Shown here: one piece after another, positions 3,001 to 9,000 of the stretch | How positions within the stretch are numbered: the first letter of the stretch is position 1 | Layout: each line of letters starts with the position of its first letter | NCBI RefSeq assembly: GCF_003334765.1 | Contig: NZ_QOWT01000030.1 | Strand: one strand, 5' to 3' | DNA length: 49,226 bases | Origin: Escherichia coli | GTDB lineage: Bacteria; Pseudomonadota; Gammaproteobacteria; Enterobacterales; Enterobacteriaceae | Made by a program: the position numbers

Positions 3001-6000
3001 ACTGATCAGGCTTTCGTTAAGATGCGGCGGGATGAGGTCGTGTTGCGTGAGTTGCAGCAGTACAAGATCGCCCGCAGAGGGTAAGCTACAGCGCGAGATC
3101 CTAGGTTTCTATCAGGGATTCGGCAAAGCGGGCGCAGTTGTCGACCAAGGCGGTGAAATCTATAGTGGCATTATAAGGGAACGAACAATAGATCGAGTAA
3201 ATCGCAGTCAGGGACAAGGATTGTAGTTTATAGAGAAGTCTCCTGTAACGGTTTTCAGGAGGCTAATTCCGACGCCTGATTTTGCAGGCGCGGAGGGAGA
3301 GGATACTGCGACCATTAATCCGCCACAAAGCATTTACGTGCATAAATCACGCAGTCAGATCCGACTCTCACTGTAGTTCTTGAACCTGATACCACATTTA
3401 GCTAATTTAGCTGACTTATCCAGTATACCAGTGGTTGCCATGAATATGAATGAAGACGAGATTAATCGTCATATCCGGCAGGCACTTTCCAGTGCGCCGC
3501 GTAACCAGTACACCGTCGAGCTGCACCTGCAAATGATTAAATATGCCGACGAACTGGAACACATTACGGCAAAAGCCTTTTGCGAAGGCATCGGTCTGAA
3601 TACCGATCTGCTGTAACCGACTTACGGCACATTATCGCGCAAAACGAGATATTTAATGGCTATCAAAAAAACCGAACTCTATTCTTCCCTGTGGGCAAGC
3701 TGCGACGAACTGCGTGGCGGGATGGACGCCAGCCAGTACAAAGACTATGTACTGACCCTGCTGTTTATGAAGTACGTTTCCGATAAGTATAAAGGCGATC
3801 CTTACGGGATGATCGTGATACCCAAAGGAGCCAGCTTTGACGATATGGTTGCGCTGAAAAATGACAAAGAGATCGGCGACAAAATCAACAAAATCATCCA
3901 CAAGCTGGCGGAAGAGAACGGCCTGAAGGGCGTCATCGACGAAGCCGACTTTAACGACGAAGATAAGCTCGGCAAAGGCAAGGAAATGATTGACCGCCTG
4001 AGCAAGCTTGTCGGTATCTTTGAAGGGTTAAATCTCTCCAGCAACCGGGCCGAAGGCGACGATCTGCTGGGCGATGCCTATGAATATCTGATGCGTCACT
4101 TCGCAACCGAATCCGGTAAGAGTAAAGGGCAGTTTTACACTCCAGCGGAGGTGTCACGTATTCTGGCGAAGGTGATTGGTATTACTCCCGATACTCCGCA
4201 AGATGCAACGGTTTATGACCCAACCTGTGGCTCTGGTTCGCTGCTGTTGAAAGTGAATGATGAAGCCCGGCGCGGACTGTCGATTTTCGGCCAGGAGATG
4301 GATAACGCTACCAGTGCGCTGGCGCGGATGAACATGATTCTGCATAACAATGCCACCGCGAAAATCTGGCAGGGCAATACGCTGAGCGATCCGCAGTGGA
4401 AAGAGGCGAACGGCAAACTGAAAGCCTTCGATTTTGCCGTGGCGAACCCGCCTTTTTCCAATAAAAACTGGACCAACGGGCTGACGCCGAAAAAAGATCC
4501 GTTTGAACGCTTCGGCTGGGGTATTCCGCCGGAAAAAAACGGCGATTATGCTTTTTTGTTGCATATCATTAAAAGCCTGAAAAGTACCGGCAAAGGCGCG
4601 GTGATCCTGCCCCACGGCGTACTGTTTCGCGGTAACGCCGAAGCGAATATCCGTGAAAATCTAATCAAGCAGGGCTATATCAAAGGCGTTATTGGTTTGC
4701 CAGCCAACCTGTTTTACGGCACCGGCATCCCGGCGTGCATCATTGTGATTGATAAAGAGCACGCCCACAGCCGCAAAGGCATTTTTATGATCGACGCCAG
4801 CCGGGGCTTTATCAAAGATGGCAACAAGAACCGCCTGCGTAGCCGAGATATTCACCGCATTGTGGACGTGTTCAACCATCAGCGAACGGTACCTGGCTAC
4901 AGCCGGATGGTGCCCTCCAGCGAGATCGCCGGAAATGATTACAACCTGAATATTCCTCGCTATATCGAGAGCGGCGAGCCGGAAGATTTACACGATCTGA
5001 CCGCGCACTTACAGGGCGGTATTCCGGCACGCGATGTGGATGCTTTGCAAGATTACTGGCGGGTATTCCCTGCCCTGCGCAACGTGCTGTTTGCTGACGA
5101 CCGTCCCGGTTACTGTCGGGCGCAGGTGAACGCGCAACAGGTGAAACCGACCATTCTGGCGCATCAGGAGTTTAAGGATTTTGCCACCCGCAGCCTGCTA
5201 CCGTTTAAAGCGTGGGTGAAAGAGGCAAGTCTGGAAGAGATTCGCAAAGGTGATAAACCCAAAGCGCTAATCCACGATATCAGCGAAATGCTATTGGCGC
5301 AGTACGCCAACAGTGAGTTGCTGAACAAATACAGCGTGTACCAGATCCTGATGGATTACTGGACTGATGTCATGCAAGACGATGTGTATGCGATTATGCA
5401 GGATGGCTGGCAAGCCGCCGCGCAAATCCGCGAGCTTCAGCCGGTGAAAGGCAAAGATGGCAAAAACATCTGGAAAGAAACGCACGATTTCGAGTTTACC
5501 AAACGGCGCTACAAGGCCGATGTGCTGCCCCGTTCGCTGGTGGAAATTCGCTGTTTCCCGGAACTGCTGGATGCGCTGAACCGCGCGCAGGAGCGCAGTG
5601 AAGAAGCCAGTCGTCAGCTAGTGGAATTCATCGAGGAGCAGGCAGGTGAAGAGGATCTGCTGGCCGAGGCGAAGAACGATAAAGATAAGGTGACGCAAAA
5701 GCTGGTGAATGCCCGTCTGGCACAGTTGAAGAAAACCACTGCCGGCCCAGATGAGCTGGCAGTGCTGAACCGCTGCCTGGCGCTAATTAAGGCCGAAGCC
5801 AGTGCGAAAAAAGCGCTGAAAGCCGCACAAGAAGCGCTGGATCGGGCGGTGTTTAAACATTATCCCACGCTGGATGAAGCAGCGATTAAAACGCTGGTAG
5901 TGCAGGATAAGTGGCTGGCAACGTTGCAGGCAGGGATCAAGGCGGAGATTGAGCGTATTACCCAGCAACTGGCGTCGCGCGTAAAGGAGCTGGAAGAGCG

Positions 6001-9000
6001 TTATGCTGAACCGTTGCTAGCGCTTGAAGCCTCCGTTGAGGCGTTGAGCGAGAAAGTGGCCGAGCATTTGCGGGCGATGGGGCTGGAGTGGTGATGGTGG
6101 ATTTAATGGTGAATGAGCAACGGTCGAGTACGGCGGGGAAAGATGTGCCTGCGGGGTATAAACTGACTGAGGTGGGCGTGATTCCTGAGGATTGGGATTG
6201 CGTACCATTTGGTAATCTGTTTAAAACAAACACAAAGAAAAAAAAAGTCAGCGATTATGAGCTAGTTTCATTTATTGGGATGCAGGATGTTAGTGAAGAT
6301 GCACAATTAAAAAATAATACTCAACTTCCTTTTAAAGAAGTTAAAAGTGGTTTTACTTACTTTGAAAAAGGGGATGTTTTATTAGCTAAAATAACCCCTT
6401 GTTTTGAAAATGGAAAAGGATGTCATACCGCTGATTTACCTACTAATGTAGGTTTTGGGAGTACGGAATTTCATGTATTAAGGGAAAATGAAGACTCCGA
6501 TTCTCGCTTCATCTATTTTTGGACAACTGATAAAAAATTCAGAGCATCACTGGAATCTGAAATGGTGGGAAGTGCGGGACACCGTCGTGTGCCGCTAGTT
6601 GCTATAGAAAAATATTTGATTCCATGTCCCCCAAATTTGCAAGAGCAAAGTGCTATTGCTGATTCATTATCTGATATTAATAATTTTATTCTAGCTCTAG
6701 AAAAGCTTATCGTTAAAAAACAAGCCATTAAAACCGCTACTATGCAGCGACTACTGACTGGTAAAACCCGTTTGCCACAGTTTGCGTTGCGCAAAGATGG
6801 CTCTGCTAAGGGATATAAAAAGAGCGAGTTGGGGGAGATTCCTGAAGATTGGGTAGTCACAAGCATTGGACAATTTACTGACTGCTGTGCTGGTGGAACT
6901 CCGAGTACTAAAATTTCAGCATATTGGGGAGGAACTCATCCTTGGATGAGTTCCGGCGAATTACACCTAAAACAGGTGTATGCTGTAGCCGATTATATAA
7001 CCGACGAAGGGCTTGTTAACTCCAGTACAAAGTATGTGCCTAAAAATTCTGTATTAGTCGGATTGGCAGGACAAGGAAAGACTCGAGGGACTGTAGCAAT
7101 TAATCGCATTGAATTATGTACTAATCAGTCTATTGCTGCGATTTTCCCCAGCAAACATCATTCCACAGAATTCCTGTTCTATAACCTCGACAGTCGTTAT
7201 GAGGAACTGAGAAGTTTATCTACTGGTGATGGGGGGCGTGGTGGGTTGAATCTTACTATTATCAGGAAATTACATCTTGCATTTCCGCCAAAAGAAGAAC
7301 AAACCGCCATCGCCACCATCCTCTCCGATATGGACAAGGAAATTCAGACCCTGCAACAGCGTCTGGACAAAACCCGTCAGCTTAAACAGGGGATGATGCA
7401 GGAGTTGTTAACCGGGAAAACCCGCTTAATATAAAAGGGAAACCTATGGCCTATGACTACAGCGCCAGCCTCAACCCGCAAAAAGCCCTGATCTGGCGTA
7501 TCGTCCATCGGGACAATATCCCGTGGATTCTGGATAACGGGCTGCACTGCGGCAACAGTCTGGTGCAGGCGGAAAACTGGATCAATATCGGCAACCCGGA
7601 GCTGATCGGCAAGCGTGCCGGGCATCCGGTACCTGTCGGAACGGGCGGGACACTGCATGACTATGTGCCGTTTTATTTTACCCCCTTCTCGCCAATGCTG
7701 ATGAACATCCACAGCGGGCGCGGCGGCATTAAGCGACGCCCCAATGAGGAGATCGTTATTCTGGTCAGCAACTTGCGGAACGTGGCAGCACACGACGTGC
7801 CCTTCGTGTTTACCGACAGCCATGCTTACTATAACTGGACCAACTACTACACCAGTCTGAATAGTCTGGACCAGATCGACTGGCCCATTTTGCAGGCACG
7901 GGACTTTCGCCGCGATCCAGACGATCCGGCTAAATTTGAACGCTATCAGGCAGAGGCGCTAATCTGGCAACACTGCCCGATCTCTCTGCTGGATGGGATA
8001 ATTTGTTACAGCGAAGAGGTCAGGTTACAATTAGAACAATGGCTGTTTCAGCGTAATCTAACAATGTCCGTTCACACACGGGCTGGATGGTACTTCTCAT
8101 GATCACATATACACAAGGCAATTTACTGGACGCACCGGTGGAAGCTCTGGTGAATACGGTTAATACCGTCGGTGTCATGGGGAAAGGCATCGCGTTGATG
8201 TTTAAAGAGCGCTTCCCCGAAAATATGAAAGTCTATGCCCTCGCCTGCAAACAAAAGCAGGTGATCACCGGCAAAATGTTCATTACCGAAACCGGGGAAC
8301 TGATGGGACCGCGCTGGATTGTTAATTTTCCGACCAAACAGCACTGGCGCGCTGATTCCCGCATGGAGTGGATTGAAGATGGCTTGCAGGACTTACGCCG
8401 CTTTTTGATTGAAGAGAATGTGCAGTCCATCGCCATTCCACCACTGGGCGCAGGCAACGGTGGTTTGAACTGGCCGGACGTTCGGGCGCAGATTGAATCT
8501 GCCCTTGGCGACCTTCAGGACGTTGATATCCTGATTTACCAACCGACTGAAAAATACCAGAACGTTGCCAAAAGCACTGGCGTAAAAAAGCTCACTCCCG
8601 CCAGAGCCGCCATCGCTGAACTGGTGCGTCGCTACTGGGTATTGGGGATGGAGTGCAGCCTACTGGAAATCCAGAAACTGGCCTGGCTGTTACAACGCGC
8701 CATTGAGCAGCATCAACAGGACGATATCCTCAAACTGCGGTTTGAAGCTCACTATTATGGCCCCTATGCGCCCAATCTGAACCATCTGCTTAATGCGCTG
8801 GACGGCACCTATCTTAAAGCCGAGAAACGCATCCCGGACAGCCAACCGCTGGATGCGATCTGGTTTAACGATCAGAAAAAAGAACACGTTAATGCGTATC
8901 TGAACAACGAAGCCAGAGAGTGGCTACCTGCGCTGGAGCAGGTCAGCCAGTTAATTGACGGCTTTGAATCGCCGTTTGGTCTGGAGTTGCTGGCAACCGT

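What the first reader, a model, noticed from the sequence alone, without database searches (positions are those of the whole stretch)
5080..6094. Unusually long HsdM with a C-terminal extension of about 300 aa
HsdM here is 812 aa, whereas classical Type I M subunits are around 500-540 aa. The extra C-terminal third is rich in heptad-like, charged, Ala/Leu/Glu/Lys segments (for example ...AKKALKAAQEALDRAV... and ...ELEERYAEPLLALEASVEALSEKVAE...). It could mediate assembly or interaction with the embedded DarTG module.
Basis: seen in the sequence. Interest (0 to 1): 0.4.

Follow-up and report, generated by a model that had tools for sequence, protein, structure and literature searches.

The report
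Long-form HsdM with extra conserved domain
The methylase subunit of this E. coli type I restriction system really does carry an extra, well-folded domain of about 360 residues that no one has characterised, but it is a widespread feature of one branch of type I systems, not an adaptor for the DarTG toxin-antitoxin pair embedded in this operon.

Summary
ORF 3656..6094 encodes an 812-aa HsdM. Homology to classical HsdM (445-544 aa in the PDB hits, the close ones 499-544) stops at about residue 450, and residues 451-812 match no Pfam family or solved structure. It is not a read-through: PGAP annotates the same CDS, and dN/dS in the extension is about 0.1.

It is not simply a coiled coil. AlphaFold2 (pLDDT 95.7) gives an aromatic-rich alpha/beta half (451-625) and an Ala/Leu/Glu/Lys-rich half of long helices (626-807).

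The domain is common: 2,180 protein clusters at 50% identity, in bacteria and archaea, always fused to an HsdM core.

The DarTG idea is not supported. Among 80 related loci only about 10 carry DarTG. The rest carry other cargo (GmrSD-like, TrlF, Kiwa and others) or none. Short-HsdM operons also host cargo and the same downstream protease. Divergent long-HsdM operons have neither.

Best reading (confidence 0.45): a domain inserted ahead of the C-terminal helix that docks on HsdS, acting in assembly or control of the core enzyme. In natural HsdM-half-HsdS fusions the HsdS coiled-coil helix follows or replaces that terminal helix.

The operon is the published EPEC RRDM island. Modest interest: common, but unexplained.

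The parts
3656..6094 (+). hsdM, long form (812 aa)
   Evidence: ORF. TIGR00497 scores 282.8 bits against a cut-off of 242.75. PADLOC MTase_I model PDLC03027 matches end to end, 1-812 to 1-810 of 810. Same CDS in RefSeq.
3683..4018 (+). HsdM N-terminal domain (residues 10-121)
   Evidence: Pfam PF12161, E=2e-16.
4058..4978 (+). N6-adenine methyltransferase catalytic domain (residues 135-441). Contains DPTCGSGS (AdoMet motif) and NPPF.
   Evidence: Pfam PF02384, E=2.2e-103. Motifs read from the translation. 41% identical to a 507-aa short HsdM over residues 3-450.
5006..5530 (+). Extension, first half (residues 451-625). Starts with the invariant HLxGGIPxxD junction motif. Predicted alpha/beta, aromatic-rich, with the conserved YxxYQxLMDYW...MQDDVY...GW helix.
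   Evidence: AF2 pLDDT 95.7 for the extension alone. Invariant and nearly invariant columns. Composition. No Pfam or PDB match.
5531..6007 (+). Extension, helical half (residues 626-784). Long helices at 635-662, 698-738 and 741-784. 626-700 is the least conserved part of the protein.
   Evidence: DSSP on the AF2 models. A+L+E+K is 54%. Identity to relatives is 32-57% at 626-700 and 45-60% at 701-760.
6014..6076 (+). Terminal helix (residues 787-807; family consensus PLPxLxxxVxxLxxxVxxHLxxMGxxW). Proposed HsdS-docking helix.
   Evidence: Residues 761-812 are better conserved (73-79% in gammaproteobacterial relatives) than the rest of the extension. In M-S fusion proteins it is replaced by, or merged into, the HsdS conserved-region helix. 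Sequence similarity to short-HsdM tails is not significant.
6094..7434 (+). hsdS (two target recognition domains, two conserved helices ending in LLTGKTRL). The start overlaps the hsdM stop by 1 nt (TGATG).
7446..8102 (+). darT (embedded cargo)
   Evidence: NF048013, 262 bits against a cut-off of 150.
8087..9166 (+). darG (embedded cargo). The start equivalent to the PGAP annotation is about 8099.
   Evidence: NF048014, 451 bits against a cut-off of 250. Annotation in L001.
9185..12280 (+). hsdR (1031 aa)
   Evidence: TIGR00348, 546 bits.
12280..12996 (+). YgjP-like / M48 / SprT-family metallopeptidase. Its start shares base 12280 with the end of hsdR.
   Evidence: RefSeq name. Follows hsdR in 56 of 61 related loci; the other 5 run out of sequence within or just after hsdR. 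31% identical to the protease of a short-HsdM operon.
3446..3616 (+). rptR-like repressor gene, here with an in-frame 69-bp deletion
   Evidence: Alignment to L001. Zhang et al. 2025, PMC12255303.

Best explanation
Residues 451-812 of HsdM form one conserved, autonomously folding accessory domain. It sits between the catalytic domain and the last C-terminal helix, and that last helix does what the short C-terminal domain of classical HsdM does: it docks on the conserved coiled coil of HsdS.

Shown here: the domain is real, under purifying selection, confidently folded, ancient, always attached to an HsdM core, and independent of which cargo, if any, is embedded in the operon.

Inferred: the terminal helix (787-807), probably with the two long helices before it, packs against the HsdS conserved helices in the M2S1 core. 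The acidic alpha/beta half and the variable helices give a protein-protein surface that stabilises or regulates the complex, for example in HsdR docking, contact between the two HsdM subunits, or the switch between methylation and restriction. It does not bind DNA and does not recognise DarTG.
For: 1. The boundary is sharp. A 507-aa short HsdM is 41% identical over residues 3-450 and then has only a 30-aa helical tail.
2. In classical enzymes that tail (EcoKI residues 470-529) contacts the HsdS coiled coil (PMC2647291).
3. HsdS here is of ordinary design, with the same LLTGK-type conserved helices as the HsdS of the short-HsdM operon. hsdM and hsdS are translationally coupled through TGATG.
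4. Natural fusion proteins exist. In P0188 (1014 aa) the extension aligns up to its residue 333. The chain then continues with the HsdS central conserved helix, second recognition domain and C-terminal helix (47% identical to window HsdS 172-447, E=2e-71). The gene is followed directly by hsdR and the protease, with no separate hsdS. P0133 and P0178 (1031 and 1037 aa) are similar. So an HsdS coiled-coil helix can take the place of the extension's terminal helix.
5. The last 50 residues are the best-conserved part of the extension, 73-79% against 36-64% in gammaproteobacterial relatives. They show the highest partial correlation of pairwise distances with the HsdS conserved regions, 0.48, which is only a weak hint.
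6. AF2 gives pLDDT 95.7 and pTM 0.86 for the extension alone, and 90.7 and 0.86 for the full protein.
7. dN/dS is about 0.1.
8. Across the family the net charge is negative, mean -5 and -9.6 for the two halves. This argues against DNA binding.
9. The extension is kept end to end at 22-26% identity in Shewanella and Exiguobacterium operons that have neither cargo nor protease.
Against:
- A profile of the terminal helix does not significantly match short-HsdM tails (-2.8 bits) or HsdM chains in the PDB.
- The distance correlations do not discriminate between HsdS, HsdR and the protease (partial r 0.36-0.42 for the whole extension).
- 'Structural or regulatory' is broad. It does not say why a 507-aa HsdM manages without the domain.
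Confidence: 0.45

Rival explanations
1. Cargo adaptor or sensor. The extension binds and holds in check whatever effector is embedded between hsdS and hsdR, as EcoprrI holds PrrC, and releases it when the restriction enzyme is disabled.
For: 56 of 61 long-HsdM operons have at least 300 bp, and 49 have at least 1 kb, of co-oriented cargo between hsdS and hsdR. There is the PrrC-EcoprrI precedent (PMC12707154; bioRxiv 10.1101/2024.01.29.577857). The extension is the fastest-evolving conserved part of the core.
Against: The cargo families are structurally unrelated: DarTG, DUF262 pairs, TrlF-like ATPase, Kiwa, a protein with weak similarity to pAgo/SIR2-associated defence models, and PDC-S02. 5 of 61 operons without cargo, and the Shewanella and Exiguobacterium operons, keep the domain. 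Short-HsdM operons carry cargo too: YecA, SIR2-HerA, an AAA ATPase.
Confidence: 0.1
2. Partner or substrate of the downstream YgjP-like (M48/SprT) metalloprotease. The extension recruits the protease or is cleaved by it, giving a built-in restriction-alleviation switch.
For: The protease follows hsdR in 56 of 61 loci, and the other 5 run out of sequence within or just after hsdR. hsdR and the protease gene overlap by one base at 12280. Proteolytic control of type I restriction is established for EcoKI (PMC12707154).
Against: A homologous protease (31% identity, E=5e-29) follows hsdR in short-HsdM operons. The long-HsdM operons L090 and L096 have no protease.
Confidence: 0.1
3. Counter-counter-defence. 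The acidic, fast-evolving extension shields the DNA-binding groove or acts as a decoy against DNA-mimic anti-restriction proteins (Ocr, ArdA).
For: Net negative charge across the family. A step drop in identity from about 87% to 36-62% at residue 450 between relatives.
Confidence: 0.08
4. Artefact: read-through, a mis-called fusion of two genes, or a decaying remnant.
For: Some database entries are stand-alone proteins of about 360-400 aa that consist of the extension only.
Against: Those entries are frameshift artefacts. In L092 the true frame runs uninterrupted through ...DLDAHLNGGIPNRD.... The same CDS is annotated in RefSeq. There are 2,180 clusters, dN/dS is about 0.1 and pLDDT is 95.7.
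Confidence: 0.01

Closest known systems
Classical HsdM of type I R-M enzymes (EcoKI type IA; EcoR124I type IC; PDB 2ar0/2y7c, 7bst, 3lkd, 7vru)
   Same: N-terminal helical domain, N6-adenine methyltransferase domain, gene order and translational coupling with hsdS, and a partner HsdR. By sequence it is closest to the 3lkd, 7vru and EcoR124I group (E=1e-77 to 1e-65), not to EcoKI (1e-21).
   Different: Classical subunits end 30-60 residues after the catalytic domain with a short helical C-terminal domain. Here about 360 residues follow, forming a separate folded domain with no Pfam or PDB counterpart.
RRDM island of EPEC E2348/69 (RptR, type I R-M, DarTG2, M48; Zhang et al. 2025, PMC12255303)
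   Same: Same seven-gene order. The near-identical E. coli locus L001 carries the very DarG and M48 accessions named in the paper (WP_000634203.1, WP_001122107.1), and the window's DarG and M48 are 100% identical to L001. The island was shown to defend against phages.
   Different: [quoted passage not shown] In this window rptR has a 69-bp in-frame deletion.
EcoprrI-PrrC and other type I systems with embedded genes (Payne et al. 2024 preprint; V. cholerae VPI-2 T1RM-TgvAB)
   Same: Accessory defence genes inserted, in the same orientation, between hsdS and hsdR. The DUF262 pairs seen in 14 of my loci resemble TgvAB. A partial V. cholerae HsdM (P0023) carries the extension at 56% identity.
   Different: Embedding is not restricted to long-HsdM operons, and EcoprrI is described as a classical type IC system. 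No role of HsdM's C-terminus in holding cargo has been reported in the papers I read.
HsdM-HsdS fusions (engineered EcoKI M-S fusion, Roberts et al. 2012, PMC3510504)
   Same: Natural long-HsdM-half-HsdS fusions exist in this family (P0188, P0133, P0178; PADLOC PDLC03032, 1001 aa). This is consistent with the C-terminus of HsdM lying next to HsdS.
   Different: Here the joint is at the end of the extra domain, and in P0188 the HsdS helix replaces the extension's last helix.

Membership tests
Type I R-M methyltransferase subunit HsdM (TIGR00497; Pfam HsdM_N + N6_Mtase) | Scores above the curated cut-off of the equivalog model | tested here: met
   282.8 bits against a cut-off of 242.75.
Type I R-M methyltransferase subunit HsdM (TIGR00497; Pfam HsdM_N + N6_Mtase) | HsdM_N domain followed by an N6_Mtase domain with the AdoMet motif and NPPF | tested here: met
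   PF12161 at 10-121 and PF02384 at 135-441. DPTCGSGS and NPPF read in the translation.
Type I R-M methyltransferase subunit HsdM (TIGR00497; Pfam HsdM_N + N6_Mtase) | Encoded next to hsdS and in one operon with hsdR | tested here: met
   hsdS starts at 6094 with a TGATG overlap. hsdR is at 9185..12280.
Type I R-M methyltransferase subunit HsdM (TIGR00497; Pfam HsdM_N + N6_Mtase) | Short C-terminal helical domain that contacts the HsdS coiled coil | tested here: inconclusive
   The terminal helix 787-807 is the candidate. Its profile gives no significant match to short-HsdM tails or PDB HsdM chains. Fusion proteins support equivalence only indirectly.
Type I R-M methyltransferase subunit HsdM (TIGR00497; Pfam HsdM_N + N6_Mtase) | Methylates the HsdS-specified target as M2S1 | not testable with these tools
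   Needs methylome or biochemical data. The EPEC island defends against phages (PMC12255303), but the contributions of the R-M system and of DarTG were not separated in the parts I read.
Long-form HsdM (about 800 aa; PADLOC MTase_I models PDLC03027, 03022, 03031) | End-to-end match including the C-terminal 360 residues | tested here: met
   PDLC03027: 1-812 to 1-810 of 810, E=0. The extension alone matches positions 451-810, E=1.2e-131.
Long-form HsdM (about 800 aa; PADLOC MTase_I models PDLC03027, 03022, 03031) | Family motifs of the extension (HLxGGIP junction, YQxLMDYW, KW, RY, HLxxMG) | tested here: met
   Invariant and nearly invariant columns in 59- and 20-sequence alignments. The GGIP junction, YQ and KW are kept in both the Shewanella and Exiguobacterium proteins; RY and the MDYW aromatic positions are only partly kept.
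RRDM defence island (rptR-hsdM-hsdS-darT-darG-hsdR-M48) | Seven genes in this order, with DarTG2 between hsdS and hsdR | tested here: met
   Matches the description in PMC12255303.
RRDM defence island (rptR-hsdM-hsdS-darT-darG-hsdR-M48) | Intact 79-aa RptR and at least two RptR operator palindromes | tested here: not met
   23 codons are deleted. Only one TAGCTA remains in the promoter; the neighbouring repeats read TAGCTG and TATCCA.
   Long helices are predicted. The periodicity test is significant only for 635-662, p about 0.005. The terminal-helix profile hits designed coiled-coil peptides only at E=0.2-1.

The most novel reading that the evidence does not exclude
The extension is a regulatory platform of a guard type. 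It reports the state of the restriction core (for instance blockage by a phage anti-restriction protein, or stalled assembly) to the co-transcribed accessory proteins: the embedded effectors or the YgjP-like protease. That would explain why this branch of type I systems is such a frequent carrier of other defence modules.
Probability: 0.12. Interest if true: 0.7.

Novelty: new variant of a known kind. Interest (0 to 1): 0.3.

Why it matters
Type I enzymes are textbook molecular machines, and every solved methylase subunit is of the short form. A large branch carries a domain of about 40 kDa per HsdM, so about 80 kDa per M2S1 core, with no assigned role, no Pfam family and no solved structure. 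That branch includes the EPEC RRDM island, probably the Vibrio cholerae VPI-2 system, and thousands of others in bacteria and archaea.

Knowing what the domain does would show whether long-form enzymes assemble or are controlled differently. It would also bear on why these operons so often host other defence genes.

The sequences are already in databases and annotated as HsdM. The gain is a defined, testable domain, not a new system.

Tried and rejected
1. Sequence and profile searches of the extension against Pfam, NCBIfam, PHROGs and PDB sequences: nothing significant.
3. Homology of the terminal helix to classical HsdM tails: not significant.
4. 'Stand-alone' extension proteins as evidence for a separable module: rejected. 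They are frameshifted genes from low-coverage or decayed contigs.
5. Mirror-tree correlation to pick the binding partner: does not discriminate.
6. Positive selection on the extension: not seen, omega about 0.1.
7. The first related-loci run with a diverse alignment failed because no stretch was conserved enough. It was repeated with closer sequences.
8. A homologue search with the short HsdM returned only near-identical sequences and gave no useful profile.
9. P0248 (1054 aa: HsdR N-terminus, then the end of HsdM, then the extension) looks like a chimeric or fused call and was ignored.
10. Literature: reviews of type I enzymes (PMC3874165, PMC12707154), the RRDM paper, the embedding preprint and the V. 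cholerae review say nothing about a long HsdM or its C-terminal domain.

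
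Full report
**What is there.** The + strand ORF 3656..6094 encodes 812 residues. It belongs to a co-oriented, tightly packed operon:
- an rptR-like gene (about 3446..3616)
- hsdM (3656..6094)
- hsdS (6094..7434)
- darT (7446..8102)
- darG (8087 or 8099..9166)
- hsdR (9185..12280)
- a YgjP-like/M48 metallopeptidase gene (12280..12996)

This is the RRDM island described in EPEC E2348/69 by Zhang et al. 2025 (PMC12255303). The near-identical E. coli locus L001 carries the same DarG and M48 protein accessions as that paper. 247 of 5,426 complete E. coli genomes hold at least 80% of the region.

**Checking the observation.** Pfam places HsdM_N at residues 10-121 and N6_Mtase at 135-441, and finds nothing significant beyond. 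TIGR00497 is passed (282.8 bits against 242.75), but the match ends at residue 444, profile position 493 of 515. All HsdM chains found in the PDB are 445-544 residues long (the closest relatives 499-544), and their matches end by query residue 453. A 507-aa HsdM from a Klebsiella plasmid is 41% identical over residues 3-450 and then has just a 30-residue helical tail. The extra region is therefore residues about 451-812, roughly 300-330 residues more than a classical subunit.

The extra region is not a read-through:
- PGAP calls the same CDS.
- The stop overlaps the hsdS start as TGATG.
- Pairwise dN/dS among four enterobacterial orthologues is 0.09-0.13 in the extension, against 0.03-0.08 in the core.

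**Anatomy of the extension.** AlphaFold2 with a 59-sequence alignment gives mean pLDDT 95.7 and pTM 0.86 for the extension alone. The full-length protein gives 90.7 and 0.86.
- Residues 451-625 are a mixed alpha/beta part. It begins with the invariant junction motif HLxGGIPxxD and holds the conserved helix YxxYQxLMDYW..MQDDVY..GW. It is aromatic-rich (11%) and has only 33% A+L+E+K.
- Residues 626-807 are long helices (635-662, 698-738, 741-784, 787-807) with 54% A+L+E+K.

In my crude test only one helix shows significant 3.5-residue periodicity. The family is acidic, with mean net charge -5 and -9.6 for the two halves.

**How common it is and what it resembles.** A search of 1.84 billion representative proteins finds 2,180 clusters at E of 1e-3 or better, and 1,148 at 1e-10 or better.

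Wherever the N-terminus is present, the domain follows an HsdM core. The apparent stand-alone proteins are frameshifted genes. PADLOC already has full-length models for such proteins (PDLC03027, 810 positions, matched end to end; also PDLC03022, 03031 and 03032).

**Does it go with DarTG or with embedded genes in general?** I mapped the operon proteins onto 80 loci that encode the extension.
- The architecture is hsdM-hsdS-[variable]-hsdR-protease.
- In the 61 loci where both hsdS and hsdR were found, the hsdS-hsdR gap is under 300 bp in 5, 300-1000 bp in 7, 1-3 kb in 18 and at least 3 kb in 31.
- DarT and/or DarG occurs in about 10 loci.
- The other gaps hold co-oriented genes of unrelated families: pairs of DUF262/GmrSD-like proteins, a TrlF/Ppl-like ATPase with a partner that weakly matches pAgo- and SIR2-associated defence models, Kiwa KwaAB and others.
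- A second slot, between hsdM and hsdS, holds a PDC-S02 nuclease-like gene in 13 loci.

The controls, however, speak against a causal link:
- Cargo-free operons keep the full extension.
- Short-HsdM operons also carry cargo: YecA in Klebsiella, SIR2-HerA in Aeromonas, an AAA ATPase in Zymomonas.
- The first two of those also carry a homologous protease after hsdR (31% identity, E=5e-29).
- The 863-aa Shewanella and 854-aa Exiguobacterium HsdMs share the whole extension at 26% and 22% identity, in plain hsdM-hsdS-hsdR operons without cargo or protease.

The short-form control sample is small, seven operons read by eye (three with cargo, one with an hsdS shufflon, one disrupted by a transposon, one contiguous, one cut by the record end). 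The relative frequencies remain to be measured.

[quoted passage not shown] HsdS here is ordinary. Several facts point to the end of the extension doing that job, with the rest being an insertion:
- The last 50 residues are the best-conserved part of the extension: 73-79% against 36-64% in gammaproteobacterial relatives, after a step down from about 87% at residue 450.
- Both short and long proteins end in a helix followed by hydrophobic-L-(K/R)-x-hydrophobic-G.
- Natural fusions exist in which the chain runs from the extension straight into an HsdS conserved helix, one recognition domain and the final HsdS helix. P0188 is followed directly by hsdR and the protease, with no separate hsdS. P0133 and P0178 are similar.

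The statistical test for homology of the terminal helix with short tails failed, and distance correlations do not single out a partner. The docking role is therefore inferred, not shown. What the remaining 300 or so residues add is open; candidates are stability, HsdR docking, contact between the two HsdM subunits, or regulation. I put 0.45 on this structural or regulatory reading. The adaptor, protease-partner and anti-anti-restriction alternatives get about 0.1 each, and an artefact about 0.01.

**Verdict.** The proposed link to DarTG is not supported. The protein is an ordinary member of a very large, database-known but mechanistically undescribed long-form HsdM family. Interest is modest (0.3). 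It is a well-defined domain of unknown function in a classic enzyme, sitting in an experimentally tractable island.

**Seen in passing.** In this window the repressor gene rptR has lost 23 codons, and two of the three operator repeats differ from the canonical forms. This predicts de-repression of the island in this lineage.

Noticed in passing
window 3399-3425 and 3446-3616: The rptR-like repressor gene has an in-frame 69-bp deletion relative to E. coli PapRG-04-4 (L001 6442..6681). The lost 23 codons, TGLNQSLGTEFSKMRNLTHRLKA, lie between GGTCTGAA direct repeats. This removes the region that Zhang et al. 2025 call the DNA-recognition helix alpha4 (Glu58, Ser60, Lys61) and Leu69.

The operator repeats read TAGCTA / TAGCTG / TATCCA here, against TAGCTA / TAGCTA / TATCTA in L001.

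249 E. coli genomes match the junction flanks and 213 carry the 69-bp segment, so roughly 36 genomes, including O157 strains, seem to share the deletion. This predicts a de-repressed island.
   Followed up: partly
L002-L081 (hsdS-hsdR interval); window 7435-9184: In operons with the long HsdM, the hsdS-hsdR interval is a hotspot for co-oriented defence cargo: DarTG, DUF262/GmrSD-like pairs resembling TgvAB, a TrlF/Ppl-like ATPase with a partner that weakly matches pAgo/SIR2-associated defence models, Kiwa and others. 49 of 61 intervals are at least 1 kb.
   Followed up: yes
for example L014 5352-6416; 13 loci in all: There is a second insertion slot between hsdM and hsdS. It is usually filled by a gene of about 355 aa matching PADLOC candidate PDC-S02 (PD-(D/E)xK-like).
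   Followed up: partly
window 12280-12996: A YgjP-like/M48/SprT-family metallopeptidase gene shares base 12280 with the end of hsdR. It follows hsdR in 56 of 61 related loci, and the other 5 run out of sequence within or just after hsdR. A homologue (31% identity) follows hsdR in short-HsdM operons as well. I found no function for it in the literature I read.
   Followed up: partly
L094 376-3420; L095 1220-4315: Natural fusions of long HsdM with half of HsdS (1014-1037 aa). L094 is followed directly by hsdR and the protease, with no separate hsdS. PADLOC model PDLC03032 (1001 positions) probably represents them.
   Followed up: partly
proteins P0059, P0065, P0169, P0237, P0239: Some homologues have an insertion of about 100-150 residues inside the helical half of the extension, at roughly extension residues 200-270 (HsdM about 650-720). 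This is the least conserved stretch.
   Followed up: no
L003 6618-7190 (also L004 and one more locus): An extra 191-aa DarT-like ORF lies upstream of darT in Dickeya and Enterobacter versions of the island. It scores 54 bits with NCBIfam, below the cut-off, and E=2.4e-36 with the PADLOC DarT model. It may be a second, divergent DarT or a remnant.
   Followed up: no
window 1-3000: The stretch upstream of the island has low G+C (37-42% against about 50% in the operon) and ORFs with no family assignment attempted, for example 1466..2248 (-) at 260 aa. The RRDM paper reports IS elements flanking the island in EPEC; I did not examine this here.
   Followed up: no
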